Origin: Candidatus Hermodarchaeota archaeon
GTDB lineage: Archaea > Asgardarchaeota > Hermodarchaeia > Hermodarchaeales > Hermodarchaeaceae
Assembly: GCA_016839805.1 (NCBI GenBank)
Contig: JAEOTO010000032.1
Coordinates: forward strand, 206,725-270,724
Length of the DNA stretch: 64,000 bases
Reading direction: 5' to 3'
Part shown: one piece after another, positions 1 through 58,193 of the stretch
How positions within the stretch are numbered: position 1 is the stretch's first letter
How the letters are laid out: each line of letters begins with the position of its first letter
Translations under genes and position numbers: made by a program
The notes under the pieces: generated by a model
Database searches by the model: none
Seen by the model: the letters and a program-made list of their open reading frames with translations, nothing else
Told to the model about the DNA's origin: nothing

Positions 1-785
1 AAATGTATATCGGAAATCAGTAACGCGCTAATGTCCTCTTTAGCACGATTATTACGGCGATTAGATGGGATGTCGGGTAGAAACAAATCCTTTGCAATGA
101 GCATTTCAGAGCTGATGATCGCACCTTCTATGCAAAGCACTTGGTCGAGTAAAACTAATTGTACTTTGGAAAAGAGATTCGGGTCCCGATTCTGCACTAT
201 GACAGTGACTCGTCCTGTTAGGTCGTCCAATTCTATAGCAATATTCCCACTCTTTGTCATAGTCTTTTTCGTGACTTGACCAACAATTTTGATTGTTCTA
301 TCTTTATCATTCGTTGTGTTCTTCTTTGATTTCATTGCATCTTGGATGTCAATTATTCCCTTTCCATCTACTCGTTGGCTTAAGATGTCACGTAATCGGT
401 AATATCGATCCTGAAAATTTGAAAGAAAGTCATCAATAGTGCCCTTGCCACGTAATTCGGGTGTAGGATCTTTGAGAATCTTGATTTCCGATTTTATGCC
501 TTCTGCCGGCTGTCTTTTTTTTGTTGGCTGTGTTATTGGTTTCGTTGGTTTAGCGTCTTTTTCTTTGGTTATCTCAGGCGGTTCAATCCGAGGTAATTGA
601 AAATGTGTGGGTTTGAGAACAGGAGTTTCTAAAGGGTGAATTTTGTTTGTTGATAGAAAGGTATCCACAATCTGGTTTGGATTTGGTTCTTTTTGCAACA
701 TATCTAAGGTTTCTGGGCTAATTTGGAATCCGGCTTTGATTAATTTCGCAACAGCTGTTTGTACGTTGGTTTCTTCTGTTGACAC
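1..785 (-). CDS. polB: DNA polymerase D small subunit DP1 (N-terminal part; runs off window edge)
   Basis: Not in the ORF track. Manual translation from GTG 785: MSTEETNVQTAVAKLIKAGFQISPE...GKGTIDDFLSNFQDRYYRL...IVGQV...ELDDLTG (OB fold)...LISDIH (first phosphoesterase motif). Confidence 0.9.
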   Translation of the reverse strand, partial: MSTEETNVQTAVAKLIKAGFQISPETLDMLQKEPNPNQIVDTFLSTNKIHPLETPVLKPTHFQLPRIEPPEITKEKDAKPTKPITQPTKKRQPAEGIKSEIKILKDPTPELRGKGTIDDFLSNFQDRYYRLRDILSQRVDGKGIIDIQDAMKSKKNTTNDKDRTIKIVGQVTKKTMTKSGNIAIELDDLTGRVTVIVQNRDPNLFSKVQLVLLDQVLCIEGAIISSEMLIAKDLFLPDIPSNRRNNRAKEDISALLISDIH

Positions 786-8549: not shown

Positions 8550-8669
8550 TGGTAGCGGGGGGTTGATTTGAACAACCGATCTCGGGGTTTCCCAAGGGGA
8601 TTTATGAGCCCCGCGGGATATCAGGTCTCGGTGAGGAACACCAAGATATCCTGGCTACCCCACCCCGCT
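8550..8669 (-). tRNA. Initiator tRNA-Met(CAT) with two introns (20a/21: 8620-8647; 37/38: 8589-8602)
   Basis: A1:T72 pair, G-rich anticodon stem CGGGG/CCCCG, CAT anticodon; 120 nt minus 28 and 14 gives a 78-nt mature tRNA; BHB central helix CAGG/CCTG. Confidence 0.92.
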
Positions 8670-16978: not shown

Positions 16979-17083
16979 TGGTGCGGCTTCCGGGATTTTC
17001 GGTGACTTTACAAAGCAGTCAAGCATTCGAACCCGGGTCTCAGGCGTGGGAGGCCTGGGTCATAACCACTAGACAAAAGCCGC
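16979..17083 (-). tRNA. tRNA-Gly(CCC) with 30-nt T-loop intron (59/60; 16996-17025)
   Basis: GCGGCTT/AAGCCGC acceptor, CAGGC-CTCCCAC-GCCTG; BHB helix TTCG/CGAA; 105-30 = 75 nt. Confidence 0.93.
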
Positions 17084-26345: not shown

Positions 26346-26451
26346 TCAACCATACTTTAAGTGCTTTACGCAATTTAACGAAATATACTAGATTTCTAAC
26401 AAAATTGACGAATTTTTATGAGAAAAAAAACGCTTTCAGGTAGAGGAAAAA

Positions 26452-26652
26452 TGGTGGGCCGACGGGGATTTTCCCAAGATGGCAATTACCATCTAGCTTT
26501 GAACCCCGGATCTCACGGATTGTCGCTATGGGTTTGGACTGACCGCATAGTCCCGAACCGCGAATCTTCGGCGGTTAGAAGGAACTGGTCCTTTCACTTA
26601 TACCATGCTAGTCCGAAAAAGTGAATTTTTCGGTTATCTAGACCATCGACCC
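26452..26652 (-). tRNA. tRNA-Pro(CGG) with four introns (26606-26635, 26567-26599, 26520-26551, 26469-26497)
   Basis: Removing 30+33+32+29 nt at BHB-type junctions yields a 77-nt cloverleaf: GGGTCGATGGTCTAGATTGGTATGATTCGCGGTTCGGGTCCGTGAGATCCGGGGTTCAAATCCCCGTCGGCCCACCA. Confidence 0.85.
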
Positions 26653-26680
26653 ATTGCTGCAGTCTACCGTCAAATACTGA

Positions 26681-27520
26681 TTAAAATTTTTCTTCCTTGG
26701 TTTTTCTCCTCGATTGAAGGTCTTCGAGTCTTCCCAATGGCGTGTGATCAAGCAGAAAGATTTCCGAATTATTCATTGAAAGGTGTCGAAACAAGGGGAT
26801 TCCCAGATGATTTTCTGTTACCTCACTATTAAGGACGTGACCTCTAAGCAGATCAAGGAAAGCTGGTAAAATTAGTACCCTCATATTAAGCAACTGATCA
26901 ACGTTTGCCCTCCTTGAGTCAATAGTTGCTTTTCCCAACCATTTTTTCATTGCATCAATTATAGTTGGTTTCCATTTTGCCTTAACCCAAACCCGGTGAG
27001 TAGTAATCCGGTTTTTTAGAGATGAAATGGCAATAACTGGATGAATATGGGCCATTAGAAGACTACTACAATCGAGGATGTCTTGTGTGGGTTGGGCATG
27101 ACCGTGAATAAGAAATACTTGCTGGGAATCAAAGCTGAGTTTGAAACCGGAGGCTGGGATAATCTGGGTGTCATCGGGAACGACCAATTCTATGTCGGCA
27201 TCATGATTTCCCCGCACAATGGTTAATGATGCCTTTTGTTTAATTTGGTTTAACAATACAGCAACCTTATGGAACTCTTGCGGTGAAAAATCACGAATTG
27301 AGTGTTTTAAATCGCCTAAAATAATCACTTCACTAGGCTTGACATTGGCAACCAATTGTTCAAAACGTTGAATAATCCGTTCTGCAAGGTTTATTGAATA
27401 TTGATCTTTCTTAAAGAGAGTGCGCTCGTAACCGATGTGTAAATCTGCGACGACAAGGATACGACGCGATTTTTCTTGAAGTAATAGTGCGGGTTCGTTT
27501 TTTATTAGTTTCAAATGCAT
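26681..27520 (-). CDS. Calcineurin-like metallophosphoesterase
   Basis: ADLHIG, GDLKH, RGNHD, HGH, HIHP. Confidence 0.9.
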   Translation of the reverse strand: MHLKLIKNEPALLLQEKSRRILVVADLHIGYERTLFKKDQYSINLAERIIQRFEQLVANVKPSEVIILGDLKHSIRDFSPQEFHKVAVLLNQIKQKASLTIVRGNHDADIELVVPDDTQIIPASGFKLSFDSQQVFLIHGHAQPTQDILDCSSLLMAHIHPVIAISSLKNRITTHRVWVKAKWKPTIIDAMKKWLGKATIDSRRANVDQLLNMRVLILPAFLDLLRGHVLNSEVTENHLGIPLFRHLSMNNSEIFLLDHTPLGRLEDLQSRRKTKEEKF

Positions 27521-41675: not shown

Positions 41676-41777
41676 AATAACGCATCCCGAGGAGCAATAT
41701 CACTGACAAAACAGCATGATATTGAAAACCTTAAGTTATTGGACACAGACCGTTAAAAAGGGTTGCTAATCGGATTT

Positions 41778-43109
41778 TCATCGCATTTTGATATAATCAT
41801 AGGCATCGCGTGCTGTATCAAATGCGTAAAAGACCTTTTGAAACTCTTTACGAAACTGAGCAACATCTTTAGCAACCTTGTTTGTAGCTTCTTGGTTAAA
41901 GACAATTCTACGCATGAATTCTGCTATTTGTGTCATCTCCGGTTCTTTCATACCAAGGCGAGTAATTTCGCTAGTACCCAATCGTATTCCGCCTGGGCGG
42001 ATATAATCTCGACCAAACCGTTTGTCCCATGGAAGTAGATTTCGGTTTATGATAATATTTGCGTCTTCTAATTTTTCTTCTACAGCACGCCCGTTTCGAA
42101 GGGGCGTATCTGCCACTTCAATTAATAGAACGTGTGATTTGGTAAATCCCTTATGTTCTGCAAGAACCTTGAATCCTTCTTCGGTTAAGGCTTGTCCAAG
42201 GGCTTGAGCGTTCTTAATGATTTGTTGACTATACTCTTTTCCAAATGCCAGCATTTCAGCCATCACAACAGCTTTCGCGGCAACGTGGTGTAGATGATGG
42301 TTACTGTGAAGTGCTGGAAAGACGCCTCGTTTAATACGATCAGCAAATTGTTCATGCGCAACAATACATCCTCCTTGGGGACCTGGAAGGGTTTTATGCG
42401 TGCTGAATGTGAGACTATCTGCCCCTTCACGAAGAGGATCTTGGAAATTATCAGAAGCAACTAATCCTGCGACGTGCGCTGCATCATAGTTTACATAAGA
42501 ACCATTTTCCTTGGCAACCTGTGAAATCTCATCTATTGGTTGAGGAAACGGAAACACTGAGGCTCCAAACATAAAGAGGTCAATATGCTTGCCCTTTTGC
42601 TTTAACCGTTCGATTTTTCTTATCGTCGCATCAACATCAATGTTCAACTCGTATTCATCATACTTGAAATACTGAACTTTAAGGCCTCGTACACGGCCTG
42701 CTGTGCCCCATAAACGATGACGAGCTGATGAAATGTGACCACCAGTTGGAATCGATAAACACATCATTCGATCGCCTGGTTCAGTAAACGCTGTGAGGAT
42801 ACTCAGATTTGCTAGTACTCCACTAATTGGGCGAACATCAGCAAATTCCGCTCGGAAGAGCTCTTTCGTAAGTTCGTTGCCTAAAATCTCAACCTCATCA
42901 ATGTATTTCGTCCCAGCGTATACGCGTTCGCCAGGCCAGCCCTCCGCATAGCGGTCGCTGAAATCTACTTGCATTGCTTCCCGAACTGCAGGAGAGTGAA
43001 CATTCTCAGAGGCAATTAAATTGATAGTTTCTCGCATCCAGGAATGGTGCTTTTCTAGGAGTGAGAATATCTTATCATAAGCTGAACGGGGGTCATCTGG
43101 AGTCATCAT
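41778..43109 (-). CDS. glyA: Serine hydroxymethyltransferase
   Basis: LIASEN, YAEG, GGHIS, DAAH, STHKTLPGPQGG, GIRLGT. Confidence 0.96.
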   Translation of the reverse strand: MMTPDDPRSAYDKIFSLLEKHHSWMRETINLIASENVHSPAVREAMQVDFSDRYAEGWPGERVYAGTKYIDEVEILGNELTKELFRAEFADVRPISGVLANLSILTAFTEPGDRMMCLSIPTGGHISSARHRLWGTAGRVRGLKVQYFKYDEYELNIDVDATIRKIERLKQKGKHIDLFMFGASVFPFPQPIDEISQVAKENGSYVNYDAAHVAGLVASDNFQDPLREGADSLTFSTHKTLPGPQGGCIVAHEQFADRIKRGVFPALHSNHHLHHVAAKAVVMAEMLAFGKEYSQQIIKNAQALGQALTEEGFKVLAEHKGFTKSHVLLIEVADTPLRNGRAVEEKLEDANIIINRNLLPWDKRFGRDYIRPGGIRLGTSEITRLGMKEPEMTQIAEFMRRIVFNQEATNKVAKDVAQFRKEFQKVFYAFDTARDAYDYIKMR

Positions 43110-53919: not shown

Positions 53920-56211
53920 ATGTCCGGGACGGAATTTGTCCAACATCCGCTCATCAAACCGAATTCTATCACAAAGAGATTGTATCAAGAAACAATCATT
54001 GGTACCGCAATCAAATGGAATACGCTAGTAGTGCTTCCGACTGGGGTCGGAAAAACTGTTATCGCAATTTTAGCCGCTGCATACCAGCTTCAAAGATTTC
54101 CTAATTCAAGATGTGTTGTTCTTGCCCCGACTAAACCTCTTGTTCTCCAACATCTGAAAACCTTTCAGGATTTTATGACCTTACCAATGGATAAAATGGA
54201 AATAATTACCGGCGAAGTTACTCCTCATAAACGTTTGAAGCTCTGGGATACACTCCAGCTCGCTTTTATGACTCCCCAGGTTCTTCAAAATGATGTATTG
54301 GCAGGACGCTATCGATTGGAGGATGTATCATTATTAGTTGTAGATGAAGCGCATCGCGCTATTGGTGATTACGCCTATGTCTTTATTGCCGGACAATATT
54401 TGAAACAATCGAGATTTCCTTTGTTGTTAGCATTAACGGCGTCACCAGGCTCTGAAATTCAAAAAATACGAGAAATTGTAACCAACCTGGGCATCACGAA
54501 CATTGAATTAAGAACACGAGATAGCCCAGATGTTGCGCCTTATCTCCCACCACTTGAATTCGAATGGCAAGAAGTCAAACTGCCTGAAAGATTCAAGCAA
54601 ATTGGGGATGCAATTAGACGCGCCATTAAAACCCGCCTAGTCCCAATCAAAGAAGCCGGGTTCATTAACACCAGTGATATTCGAAGGGTATCCGTTCGTC
54701 AGATTTTACAGCTTCAGCGTGATATTCAACAACGTATAGCTGTAGAAACATCGCCACCAAGTCACCTATTCCAATTAGTATCTCATTGCGCTGCATTATT
54801 ACGACTTTATCACAGTGTGGAATTATTAGAAACTCAGGGTGTAACTGCGCTTCATCGCTACATAGAAGGAATTCAAAAAGAAGCGCAGCGTGGAAAAACT
54901 TCGAAAGCAATTCGAGGACTTGCACAGGATCCCCACTTATTAGAGGCTCAGCAAATTCTTAGGGAATTAATCTCTGATCACGTCGAACATTCCAAGCTAC
55001 CAGTCTTAGTCAACATCGTCAAGAACCAACTGAAAAACAACCCCAGTTCTCGAATTATGGTCTTCACACGGTATCGTGACACAGCAAAACTCCTTGAAAC
55101 AACCCTTTCAACTTCAACGAGTTCGCGACCAATACGATTTATAGGACAGGCCAGTCGAGGAGACGATCGAGGGTTAACACAAAAAGAACAAGGTCAGATT
55201 CTCCAATTGTTCCGAGAAGGGACCTACAACGTTTTGGTTGCAACTAGCGTTGGCGAGGAAGGCCTTGACATTCAAGAATGTGACTTGGTACTTTTTTATG
55301 AAGCAGTTCCTAGTGCTGTACGGTTAATCCAACGGCGTGGACGCACAGGTCGTACTCAACCCGGTCGTGTAATTGTACTTGTTGCTTTAGGTACACGTGA
55401 TCAAGGATATTACTGGGCGGCTATTCACCGTGAGGCAAAGATGAAAGAGCTCTTAAAGGAGATGAATGTGATGTCGCGCGAAATTGAACGAGAACGAAAA
55501 CAATCCACGTTGAAAGAGTTTATGAAATCCCAGGCAAGTGATGAATCATCTCAAGATAAAGATCTTATCACCATTGTTGTGGATAATCGGGAACTTCGTT
55601 CGGCGATTACGAAGGCTTTGAAGGAACTGGACGTAAAGCTTGAAGTAGAGGCTCTTGAAGTCGGCGACTATCTCCTCTCGGATCGCGTTGCTGTCGAAGC
55701 AAAAACATCAGACGATTTCGCGCAATCAATAATTGACCGACGTCTGTTTACCCAATTGGGGCATCTTAAAGAAAGTTTCCCAGTTCCTCTTCTTCTAATT
55801 ACAGGTTCAAGTTTGTATGGATCCAGCGCCATTAACCCGGCTGCAATACGTGGTGCACTATCATCCGCAATTATTGACTTCAATGTACCAGTTGTAAACG
55901 TCCGTAATCCAAAGGAGGCCGCTGCACTTCTCTTTGCGATCGCACGGCAAGAACAAAGTACACGAAAACACACCCTGAGCATCCGTGGAAAAAAACCAGT
56001 TCTAACTATGGCTACACTCCAGGAATATATTGTAGCTAGCCTTCCTGGAGTAAACACGACCCTAGCAAAACGTCTCTTAACCCATTTTGGAAGTATTGCT
56101 ACGCTTGTCAACGCCAGTCCTAAACAACTTTCCGAAGTCCATGGCATAGGAAATACAAAAGCTCAGAGTATTCGGGAAGCTTTTGATACCAAATATGAAC
56201 CTGAAAACTAG
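53920..56211 (+). CDS. hef: Hef helicase/ERCC4 nuclease (FANCM-like)
   Basis: PTGVGKT, DEAH, TASPG, QRRGRTGR, VDNRE, VGDY, C-terminal HhH. Confidence 0.93.
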   Translation: MSGTEFVQHPLIKPNSITKRLYQETIIGTAIKWNTLVVLPTGVGKTVIAILAAAYQLQRFPNSRCVVLAPTKPLVLQHLKTFQDFMTLPMDKMEIITGEVTPHKRLKLWDTLQLAFMTPQVLQNDVLAGRYRLEDVSLLVVDEAHRAIGDYAYVFIAGQYLKQSRFPLLLALTASPGSEIQKIREIVTNLGITNIELRTRDSPDVAPYLPPLEFEWQEVKLPERFKQIGDAIRRAIKTRLVPIKEAGFINTSDIRRVSVRQILQLQRDIQQRIAVETSPPSHLFQLVSHCAALLRLYHSVELLETQGVTALHRYIEGIQKEAQRGKTSKAIRGLAQDPHLLEAQQILRELISDHVEHSKLPVLVNIVKNQLKNNPSSRIMVFTRYRDTAKLLETTLSTSTSSRPIRFIGQASRGDDRGLTQKEQGQILQLFREGTYNVLVATSVGEEGLDIQECDLVLFYEAVPSAVRLIQRRGRTGRTQPGRVIVLVALGTRDQGYYWAAIHREAKMKELLKEMNVMSREIERERKQSTLKEFMKSQASDESSQDKDLITIVVDNRELRSAITKALKELDVKLEVEALEVGDYLLSDRVAVEAKTSDDFAQSIIDRRLFTQLGHLKESFPVPLLLITGSSLYGSSAINPAAIRGALSSAIIDFNVPVVNVRNPKEAAALLFAIARQEQSTRKHTLSIRGKKPVLTMATLQEYIVASLPGVNTTLAKRLLTHFGSIATLVNASPKQLSEVHGIGNTKAQSIREAFDTKYEPEN

Positions 56212-57877: not shown

Positions 57878-58011
57878 GCAGGGGTGCCAGAGCTTGGTCA
57901 ATCCAGTGAACGGCTTATAGATAATTGCTATTCGTTCCATGGACCATAAGGGCTGGGTTCAGGCCCCAGTGGCGTAGGCCTGCGCGGGTTCGAATCCCGT
58001 CCCCTGCACCA
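57878..58011 (+). tRNA. tRNA-Leu(CAG) with ~46-nt D-arm intron (~57902-57947)
   Basis: GCAGGGG/CCCCTGC, CTGGG-TTCAGGC-CCCAG, long variable arm; 134-46 = 88 nt; junction uncertain by 1-2 nt. Confidence 0.9.
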
Positions 58012-58056: not shown

Positions 58057-58193
58057 TGGCGGGCTCGGCGGGACTTGAACCCGCGACCCTCGGGTGTCTT
58101 TAGAAGACTGCTAGAAGCTCTTCTCTAAAAGCCCGATGCTCTGACCTTACCCACGCCGGAAACCCGGTACGTGTCTGGCTAAGCTACGAGCCC
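58057..58193 (-). tRNA. tRNA-Lys(TTT) with two introns (18/19: 58146-58174; 37/38: 58096-58125)
   Basis: GGGCTCG/CGAGCCC, G73, CTTTTA[intron]A; BHB helix CTTT/AAAG; 137-29-30 = 78 nt. Confidence 0.92.

What the first reader, a model, noticed from the sequence alone, without database searches (positions are those of the whole stretch)
26452..26652. tRNA-Pro(CGG) split by four introns, with a 6-nt exon
Seen: 201 nt parse into exons of 17, 6, 15, 22 and 17 nt and introns at 17/17a (30 nt), 22/23 (33 nt), 37/38 (32 nt) and 59/60 (29 nt). Each junction has a strict or relaxed bulge-helix-bulge, and the product is a clean 77-nt cloverleaf. Established: multi-intron archaeal tRNAs are best known from Thermoproteales, where the maximum I recall is three introns. 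Inference: four would be extreme, standard tRNA scanners probably miss this gene, and overlapping BHBs of introns 1 and 2 imply ordered splicing.
Basis: partly seen in the sequence, partly recalled or inferred. Interest (0 to 1): 0.85.

Follow-up and report, generated by a model that had tools for sequence, protein, structure and literature searches.

The report
Four-intron proline tRNA gene, Asgard archaeon
This is a real, conserved proline tRNA gene of an Asgard (Hermodarchaeum) archaeon cut into five pieces by four small tRNA-type introns, one piece being only six bases long; such crowded tRNA genes have been published for Asgard archaea since 2024, so it is a well-documented new example, not a new kind of thing.

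Summary
Observation confirmed; the claim that it is extreme is out of date.

The 77-nt product is called tRNA-Pro(CGG) by ARAGORN. ARAGORN and the Rfam tRNA model both miss the unspliced gene.

The decisive evidence is comparative. The genome belongs to the genus of Candidatus Hermodarchaeum yapensis.
- At the same syntenic locus, 11 other species keep all four introns and 3 lack intron 1.
- In the sister genus, orthologues carry one intron or none. The intron-free one scores 55.9 bits as a tRNA.
- Exons are nearly invariant. Intron helices covary in bulge-helix-bulge geometry: 20 pairs show double changes, and 92.7% of cells are paired against 39-51% in slid controls.

The genome encodes a crenarchaeal-type alpha+beta splicing endonuclease and RtcB.

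Four-intron tRNAs are already tabulated for Freyarchaeia and Atabeyarchaeia (2024), and a 2026 preprint reports up to five. This genome has a second four-intron gene, tRNA-Leu(CAA). This scan had already noted four- to six-intron Asgard tRNAs on other DNA.

Ordered splicing is not shown: the two D-loop motifs share one nucleotide.

The parts
26636..26652 (-). Exon 1 (17 nt): tRNA positions 1-17, i.e. acceptor 5' strand, U8, G9, D-stem 5' strand and the start of the D loop
   Evidence: Nearly invariant in 19 orthologues; U4/C4 varies opposite G69, so the pair is kept
26606..26635 (-). Intron 1 (30 nt) at 17/17a. Its 3' CUAG pairs with exon C12-G15 as the 4-bp central helix. Inner hairpin of 7 bp. 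No exon-exon outer helix (HBh' type)
   Evidence: central 4/4 in 12 of 12 species; 5 of 7 inner pairs have compensatory changes. Absent in L009, L010 and L014. Present alone in L018 of the sister genus
26600..26605 (-). Exon 2 (6 nt, UGGUAU): tRNA positions 17a-22, carrying the conserved G18 G19
   Evidence: Contiguous with exon 1 in the three species that lack intron 1 and in the sister genus
26567..26599 (-). Intron 2 (33 nt) at 22/23. Central helix is U17a-U20 with the intron's 3' end (4/4 including G-U). It has a short h' plus a conserved inner hairpin (GGA...UCC)
   Evidence: central 4/4 in 15 of 15; one-sided changes keep the pairs (UG/UA, GC/GU), and the h' pairs covary. Predicted de novo by RNAalifold
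26552..26566 (-). Exon 3 (15 nt): positions 23-37, i.e. D-stem 3' strand, anticodon-stem 5' strand and the loop up to G37, with anticodon CGG
   Evidence: invariant in all 19 orthologues
26520..26551 (-). Intron 3 (32 nt) at the canonical 37/38 site. hBHBh': the anticodon stem is the outer helix, central helix is 3/4 here, inner helix is 5 bp
   Evidence: A homologous intron is the only one present in L016/L017 of the sister genus
26498..26519 (-). Exon 4 (22 nt): positions 38-59, i.e. anticodon-stem 3' strand, variable loop, T-stem 5' strand and T loop up to A59
   Evidence: C49/G65 changes to U49/A65 in L010, a compensatory change across intron 4
26469..26497 (-). Intron 4 (29 nt) at 59/60. 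The T stem is the outer helix. The inner helix spans 8 positions (7 paired here, one U-U mismatch). Central helix is 3/4 (A57 unpaired), a relaxed BHB
   Evidence: 3/4 in 14 of 15 and 4/4 in L006; 6 of 8 inner pairs have compensatory changes. RNAalifold predicts h and h' but not the 3-bp centre
26452..26468 (-). Exon 5 (17 nt): positions 60-76, i.e. U60, T-stem 3' strand, acceptor 3' strand, A73 and the encoded CCA
   Evidence: 24 of 25 Infernal-detected tRNA genes of this genome also encode CCA
26679..26694 (-). Conserved A/T-rich promoter-like element (AAGAAAAATTTTAATC), centred about 32 nt upstream of position 1
   Evidence: the same block (AAGAAACATTTTAAG or a near variant) lies at the same distance in all genus orthologues, with a related block in the sister genus. 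That it is a BRE/TATA promoter is inferred
26447..26451 (-). Run of five T directly after CCA, a likely transcription stop
   Evidence: Read from the sequence; the function is inferred

Best explanation
This is the single tRNA-Pro(CGG) gene found in this Hermodarchaeum genome. It is transcribed as a precursor of about 201 nt, from a conserved A/T-rich promoter to a T-run.

[quoted passage not shown] Four exon bases just upstream of the 5' cut pair with four intron bases just upstream of the 3' cut. Each cut falls after the second base of a 3-nt bulge.

The genome's two-subunit splicing endonuclease cuts all eight sites. It has a catalytic alpha subunit with the crenarchaeal-type specificity loop and a beta subunit that has lost the catalytic His. 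RtcB then joins the five exons (17, 6, 15, 22 and 17 nt) into a 77-nt tRNA.

Shown here: the gene, its exon and intron boundaries, conservation, covariation of the intron helices, and the presence of the enzymes. Inferred: transcription, cleavage at these exact phosphates, and ligation.
For: - The spliced product is called tRNA-Pro(cgg) by ARAGORN.
- An intron-free orthologue scores 55.9 bits with Rfam tRNA and is 72/77 identical to the product. Single-intron orthologues splice to the identical 77 nt.
- Same synteny in all 19 loci.
- 12 species have four introns and 3 have three.
- BHB geometry holds junction by junction in every species.
- 92.7% of cells are paired against 39-51% when partners are slid. 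20 pairs have changes on both sides, and 0 of 500 shuffles reach that.
- RNAalifold, with no structure given, predicts the BHBs of introns 1-3 and both flanking helices of intron 4.
- The EndA alpha subunit (186 aa) is closest to the Aeropyrum pernix alpha subunit 3P1Z_B (E 1.7e-45). It has Tyr/His/Lys, and its K41 aligns to K44 of the specificity loop (role of K44 from PMC3488258).
- A second paralogue (198 aa) lacks the catalytic His.
- RtcB is present.
- No second Pro(CGG) gene or copy of its exons occurs in the assembly.
Against: - There are no RNA data, so neither the precursor nor the mature tRNA has been observed.
- Introns 3 and 4 have only 3 of 4 central pairs in this genome. Introns 1 and 2 lack an exon-exon outer helix. 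All four therefore depend on a broad-specificity enzyme whose range is untested.
- The exact D-loop cut sites have alternative registers by BHB rules alone. They are fixed here by comparison with intron-free relatives.
- The assembly is 87% complete, so an intron-free second copy cannot be strictly excluded.
Confidence: 0.93

Rival explanations
1. The two D-loop introns must be removed in a fixed order, intron 1 before intron 2, because their BHB motifs overlap.
For: U17a is both the third bulge base at the 3' cut of intron 1 and the first pair of intron 2's central helix. A 3-bp outer helix for intron 2 (U17-A24, A16-U25, G15-U26) exists only after intron 1 is gone (column h_spliced).
Against: - The overlap is one nucleotide.
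- RNAalifold draws both motifs together in the full precursor.
- In partition-function folds, intron 2's central helix is more probable with intron 1 present (median 0.57-0.78) than removed (0.29-0.38).
- The three species without intron 1 have only one outer pair and still keep intron 2.
- Nearest-neighbour folding says little about a protein-bound motif.
Confidence: 0.25
2. The gene has a different number of introns or different boundaries, for example five introns, or D-loop cuts shifted by 1-3 nt giving a 76-79-nt product.
For: The BHB-and-cloverleaf search returns 7 solutions. These include one with five introns and several with shifted D-loop registers.
Against:
- It is the only register with a perfect, invariant CUAG/CUAG central helix in 12 of 12 species.
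- Introns 3 and 4 are the same in all solutions.
Confidence: 0.04
3. It is a decaying tRNA pseudogene that has accumulated insertions, and Pro CCG codons are read by tRNA-Pro(UGG).
For: A UGG anticodon can in principle read CCG. Standard scanners see no gene here.
Against: - Exons are nearly invariant across 19 genomes while introns diverge to about 70% identity.
- Substitutions in stems are compensatory, both in exons (T stem in L010) and in intron helices.
- The promoter block is conserved.
- Insert lengths are held at 28-33 nt.
- It is the only Pro(CGG) gene found.
Confidence: 0.02
4. It is a chance parse: any 200-nt stretch with complementary ends can be cut into a cloverleaf.
For: My search found lax pseudo-solutions in 4 of about 1050 random acceptor-paired stretches of up to 260 nt, and in many stretches over 300 nt.
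Against: ARAGORN accepted none of the four pseudo-solutions from stretches of up to 260 nt that were tested. Here the product is accepted, matches an intron-free orthologue, and the parse is conserved with covariation in 11 other species.
Confidence: 0.01

Closest known systems
Multi-intron tRNA genes of Asgard archaea: Freyarchaeia and Atabeyarchaeia (Valentin-Alvarado et al. 2024, Nat Commun, PMC11291895, Supplementary Data 4), and Freyrarchaeaceae, Jordiarchaeaceae and Atabeyarchaeaceae in the 2026 preprint 10.64898/2026.10.13.758758
   Same: - Same phylum-level group.
- Short (about 12-50 nt) BHB-type introns at canonical and non-canonical sites, many in the D arm.
- Four introns per gene are tabulated, e.g. 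Freyarchaeia Arg(TCT) and Ile2(CAT), with exons of 7-9 nt by their coordinates. The preprint reports up to five.
- D-arm introns are missed by standard annotators.
- Two EndA paralogues are usual.
   Different: - A different class (Hermodarchaeia), not named in the preprint's main text.
- In those genomes Pro(CGG) has one intron; here it has four.
- The 6-nt exon is slightly shorter than the 7-9 nt seen in that table.
- Burden here is lower. My partial census gives roughly one intron per gene, against 2.0-2.4 in the focal families.
Multiple-intron tRNAs of Thermoproteales (Sugahara et al. 2007, 2008; reviewed in PMC4033280 and PMC4090602)
   Same: Non-canonical BHB/HBh' introns, including T-loop and D-arm positions. 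An alpha2beta2 endonuclease with the crenarchaea-specific loop. The genes are hidden from simple scanners.
   Different: The stated maximum there is three introns per gene (PMC4033280). It is a different phylum. Related intron sequences recur in different tRNAs there, whereas the four introns here resemble no other intron in the genome.
Ectopic and multiple tRNA introns of the red alga Cyanidioschyzon merolae (PMC3728597)
   Same: Several short introns at non-canonical positions in one nuclear tRNA gene.
   Different: Eukaryotic enzyme and context; some of those genes are permuted. This comparison rests on that paper's abstract only.

Membership tests
Archaeal protein-spliced (BHB) tRNA intron | [quoted passage not shown] | tested here: met
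   This genome: intron 1 has 4/4 Watson-Crick pairs, intron 2 has 4/4 (two G-U), intron 3 has 3/4, intron 4 has 3/4. Across species: 12/12, 15/15, 3-4 of 4, and 3/4 (4/4 in one). Introns 3 and 4 count as 'relaxed'.
Archaeal protein-spliced (BHB) tRNA intron | Two 3-nt bulges on opposite strands, with the cut after the second bulge base, giving exons that join into a valid tRNA | tested here: met
   Cuts placed by this rule give the 77-nt product. Intron 1 has one extra unpaired base beside the 5' bulge. Its 3' bulge shares U17a with intron 2's helix.
Archaeal protein-spliced (BHB) tRNA intron | At least one flanking helix (exon-exon h or intron h') of 2 or more pairs | tested here: met
   The h' helix has 7, 2-3 (plus an inner hairpin), 5 and 7-8 pairs for introns 1-4. 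The h helix is the anticodon stem for intron 3 and the T stem for intron 4. Compensatory changes occur in 5, 2, 5 and 6 h' pairs.
Archaeal protein-spliced (BHB) tRNA intron | The host encodes a splicing endonuclease able to cut relaxed, non-canonical motifs, plus an RNA ligase | tested here: met
   Alpha subunit: Y/H/K triad and a loop Lys aligned to A. pernix K44. Beta-like paralogue without the catalytic His. RtcB present. Actual substrate range not measured.
Archaeal protein-spliced (BHB) tRNA intron | Intron is actually excised in RNA | not testable with these tools
tRNA-Pro(CGG) | Cloverleaf with anticodon CGG, U33 and G37 | tested here: met
   (ARAGORN drawing); anticodon loop UU-CGG-GU.
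tRNA-Pro(CGG) | Scores as a tRNA with a covariance model | tested here: inconclusive
   The spliced sequence could not be given to the Rfam tool. The intron-free orthologue L019 (72/77 identical) scores 55.9 bits against a gathering score of 29.
tRNA-Pro(CGG) | Proline identity elements (G35, G36, A73, G1-C72, as I recall for archaeal ProRS) | tested here: met
   All are present in the product. The list of identity elements is from memory, not from a tool.
Record-holder for introns per tRNA gene | More introns than any reported tRNA gene | tested here: not met
   Four are tabulated in PMC11291895 Supplementary Data 4. The preprint reports up to five. A second four-intron gene is in this genome.

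The most novel reading that the evidence does not exclude
Introns 1 and 2 form a composite 'double BHB'. Intron 1 has no exon-exon outer helix. The helix that follows its 3' bulge is the central helix of intron 2, built from the 6-nt exon. The tiny exon would then be held in place only by the two introns, and the pair would be recognised together or in an obligate order by the endonuclease. I did not find this way of presenting a substrate described.

In addition, this locus offers a natural series of 0, 1, 3 and 4 introns at one syntenic gene within one family, which could show how such crowding builds up.
Probability: 0.2. Interest if true: 0.5.

Novelty: new member of a known kind. Interest (0 to 1): 0.3.

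Why it matters
It adds a well-supported case of extreme tRNA gene interruption in a further Asgard class, Hermodarchaeia. The papers I read did not single out that class.

The comparative series is unusually clean. At one syntenic locus, relatives carry no intron, one intron (two different ones), three or four. That makes the locus a good natural experiment for the open question of how and how fast these introns are gained and lost.

It also gives a ready test substrate for the range of Asgard splicing endonucleases: a 6-nt exon flanked by two motifs that share a base.

For annotation, about a third of this genome's tRNA genes, including all three proline tRNAs, are invisible or mis-called by ARAGORN and the Rfam model. 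One mis-call is a false 'tRNA-Pyl' in this window.

Tried and rejected
1. Thermodynamic test of splicing order. Central-helix pair probabilities are near zero for introns 3 and 4 even though these are clearly real. Nearest-neighbour folding therefore does not model the protein-bound motif, and the result says nothing reliable about order.

2. Search for copies of the four introns elsewhere in the genome. No pair scored above the shuffled maximum, so there is no evidence of recent copying. T-loop introns of other tRNAs share only the 3' CCGAAAA that the T loop imposes.

3. Alternative reading of intron 1 as an insertion at 7/8. MAFFT aligned the three-intron genes that way because the intron's 3' end resembles the exon TGGTCTAG. 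I rejected it because it fails in this genome and most others: the intron ends GGACTAG, which would break the D stem.

4. My first two genome-wide census runs timed out. The rewritten search worked but is incomplete. It needs an uninterrupted 5' acceptor strand plus U8, an encoded CCA, A14 and G18G19, and it missed the four-intron tRNA-Leu(CAA), which I then confirmed by hand. Its pseudo-solutions in four random stretches were rejected by ARAGORN.

5. ARAGORN's tRNA-Leu(caa) call at G000:C46:6986-7093 looks mis-spliced and is probably Val(CAC). I did not pursue it.

6. Sugahara et al. 2007 (PMC1852824) is not held, so I could not check what it says about stepwise splicing.

7. Structure prediction, complex prediction and the large protein searches were not used, because the question did not need them.

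Full report
**What is there**

The 201 bases at window 26452-26652 read as a gene on the minus strand. ARAGORN draws it as tRNA-Pro(CGG):
- a 7-bp acceptor stem with one G-U pair;
- a D arm of the usual proline type (G10-U25, U11-A24, C12-G23);
- a 5-bp anticodon stem and the loop UU-CGG-GU;
- a 5-bp T stem, a UUCAAAU loop, A73 and an encoded CCA.

The gene sits in a 336-nt gap between two minus-strand ORFs. ARAGORN, with or without its intron option, and the Rfam tRNA model (at the gathering score, at E<=10 on the 501-nt stretch, and in the whole-genome search) all fail to call the unspliced gene.

**Is the parse more than chance?**

I wrote a search that takes only two complementary acceptor strands, U8 and CCA. 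It then tries every combination of BHB-like introns that yields a generic cloverleaf.
- On this stretch it returns seven solutions, all needing at least four introns. Introns 3 and 4 are identical in all seven; only the D-loop cuts have other registers.
- The same search gives lax pseudo-solutions in 4 of about 1050 random stretches up to 260 nt, all rejected by ARAGORN. It does so in many stretches above 300 nt.

So a parse alone would not be proof.

**Comparative evidence**

A DNA search of 40 relatives found the locus in all 14 genomes of the same genus and all 4 of a sister genus, and in none of 22 more distant genomes of the phylum. Both flanking genes are syntenic in the genus, and the downstream one in all 19 loci.

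Intron content at this locus:

| Group | Genomes | Introns |
|---|---|---|
| Own genus, including this genome | 12 | all four |
| Own genus | 3 | three (no intron 1) |
| Sister genus | 2 | only the canonical 37/38 intron |
| Sister genus | 1 | only the 17/17a intron |
| Sister genus | 1 | none (77 nt) |

- The single-intron genes splice to exactly the 77 nt predicted here.
- The intron-free gene differs at 5 of 77 positions and scores 55.9 bits with the Rfam tRNA model.
- Exons are almost invariant, while introns diverge to about 70-78% identity.
- One species changes C49-G65 to U49-A65, a compensatory change across intron 4.
- A conserved A/T-rich block lies about 32 nt upstream in every orthologue, and a T-run follows CCA here.

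**The splicing motifs**

I used the published geometry. The central helix lies between exon bases a-5..a-2 and intron bases n-5..n-2. The bulges are 3 nt, and each cut falls after the second bulge base. Every junction fits in every species.

| Intron | Site | Central helix | Inner helix (h') | Outer helix (h) |
|---|---|---|---|---|
| 1 | 17/17a | CUAG/CUAG, 4/4 in 12 of 12 | 6-7 bp | none (HBh') |
| 2 | 22/23 | U17a-U20, 4/4 with G-U in 15 of 15 | 2-3 bp plus a conserved inner hairpin | none in the full precursor |
| 3 | 37/38 | 3-4 of 4 | 5-8 bp | anticodon stem |
| 4 | 59/60 | 3 of 4 (A57 unpaired); 4/4 in one species | 8 positions | T stem |

On the 19-sequence alignment, 92.7% of cells form a pair, against 39-51% when the 3' partners are slid by 1-3 columns. 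Twenty pairs carry changes on both sides, and 0 of 500 shuffles reach that number. The compensatory changes are concentrated in the intron helices. The structure string was derived from this gene, which favours it against the slid controls. However, RNAalifold on the 12 four-intron genes, with no structure supplied, predicts the complete motifs of introns 1-3 and both flanking helices of intron 4.

**The machinery**

The genome has two proteins carrying both EndA domains.
- One (186 aa) is closest to the catalytic alpha subunit of the Aeropyrum pernix heterotetramer (3P1Z_B, E 1.7e-45). It keeps Tyr, His and Lys. It has a matching insertion whose K41 aligns to K44, the residue shown to give that enzyme its broad specificity (PMC3488258).
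- The other (198 aa) has lost the catalytic His in the alignment to the M. jannaschii enzyme and also matches structural beta subunits.

This fits an (alpha-beta)2 enzyme. That is the architecture linked with non-canonical and multiple introns (PMC4090602) and common in Asgard archaea. RtcB is present. Cleavage and ligation themselves are inferred.

**The organism**

An exact-pattern scan of named genomes hit 11 records. Their genes are identical to the 11 other four-intron orthologues. They include Candidatus Hermodarchaeum yapensis Yap4.bin9.105 and other MAGs labelled Hermodarchaeota or Promethearchaeota. The window's genome (2.31 Mb, 50 contigs, 43.8% G+C, 87% complete) therefore belongs to that Asgard genus.

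**Context within the genome**

My census is incomplete. Combined with a hand check, it finds about 37 tRNA genes:
- 13 have no intron, about 13 have one and about 9 have two.
- Elongator tRNA-Met has three.
- Two genes have four: this one and tRNA-Leu(CAA) at G000:C46:45258-45445.

There is one Pro(CGG) gene and no other copy of its exons. Pro(UGG), Pro(GGG) and Val(UAC) each carry an intron at the same 17/17a site ending in CUAG plus two bases. Their sequences are not detectably related to intron 1 here.

**Gain and loss**

A tree of the neighbouring gene separates the two genera (100/100).
- One three-intron species falls at the base of the genus.
- The other two three-intron species are nested inside the four-intron species.
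- Intron 1 and intron 3 each have a similar counterpart in the sister genus.

The simplest reading is that introns 1 and 3 are older, introns 2 and 4 arose on the stem of the genus, and intron 1 was lost at least once within the genus. This rests on one gene tree and is tentative.

**Ordered splicing**

The two D-loop motifs overlap by one base. U17a is the third bulge base at intron 1's 3' cut and also the first pair of intron 2's central helix. An outer helix for intron 2 exists only once intron 1 is removed. Against an obligate order:
- both motifs are drawn together in the consensus fold;
- species without intron 1 manage with a single outer pair;
- pair-probability folds point, if anywhere, the other way.

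I treat order as open.

**Novelty**

- Supplementary Data 4 of Valentin-Alvarado et al. 2024 lists four-intron tRNA genes in Freyarchaeia and Atabeyarchaeia, with exons of 7-9 nt.
- A preprint of October 2026 reports a mean of 2.2 and up to five intervening sequences per gene in three Asgard families. It notes that D-arm introns are the ones annotators miss.
- Hermodarchaeia are not named in its main text.
- Earlier notes of this scan describe four- to six-intron tRNA genes in other Asgard genomes. I did not test those.

This is therefore a new, well-supported member of a known kind. Its modest extras are a 6-nt exon, two motifs that share a base, and a clean 0-to-4 series at one locus.

Noticed in passing
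window 58057-58193 (-): ARAGORN's 'tRNA-Pyl(cta)' at 58057-58134 is an artefact. The stretch is the 3' part of a two-intron tRNA-Lys(UUU) gene (137 nt; introns after mature positions 19 and 39).
   Followed up: partly
window 57878-58011 (+): A 134-nt stretch begins GCAGGGGU and ends CCCCUGCACCA. It is probably another interrupted tRNA-Leu. ARAGORN calls it Leu(aag) with one intron, and my search found no clean solution.
   Followed up: no
window 8550-8669 (-) and 16979-17083 (-): The first is a two-intron tRNA-Met(CAU)-type gene with acceptor AGCGGGG, possibly the initiator. The second is a tRNA-Gly(CCC) with a single T-loop intron. Neither reaches the Rfam gathering score: the Met gene is not found at all, and Gly(CCC) scores 24.8 bits, below the cut-off.
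   Followed up: partly
G000:C46:45258-45445 (+), outside the window: This is a second four-intron gene in the same genome: tRNA-Leu(CAA), with exons 8/25/7/31/17 and introns 22/30/21/27 nt at 8/9, about 30/31, 37/38 and 59/60. ARAGORN accepts the 88-nt product, and the central helices have 3-4 of 4 pairs.
   Followed up: yes
G000:C22:30117-30253, 55031-55163, 41712-41820 (+), outside the window: tRNA-Pro(UGG), tRNA-Pro(GGG) and tRNA-Val(UAC) all share the D arm GGUCUAG (AGUCUAG in Pro(UGG)). Each carries a 28-32-nt intron at 17/17a whose 3' end reads (G)G(A)CUAG plus two bases, so the palindrome CUAG supplies both strands of the central helix. The intron bodies are unrelated in sequence.
   Followed up: partly
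L008 (G014) and L004 (G007), gene positions about 8-17 and 38-47: In some species, the last 8-10 bases of intron 1 repeat the exon just upstream of the intron (UGGUCUAG..). The result looks like a direct repeat flanking the insert. In this genome the copy is degenerate (GGACUAG). It could be a trace of how the intron arrived, or only a by-product of the pairing constraints.
   Followed up: no
G000:C22:27283-27464 (-), outside the window: This elongator tRNA-Met(CAU) has three introns (32, 47 and 26 nt) and a 7-nt anticodon-loop exon. I did not examine that.
   Followed up: no
G000:C22:24271-24531 (+), outside the window: The beta-like EndA paralogue lies inside a cluster of interrupted tRNA genes: Asp(GUC), Tyr(GUA), Arg(CCU) and Met(CAU), at C22:23028-27464.
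   Followed up: no
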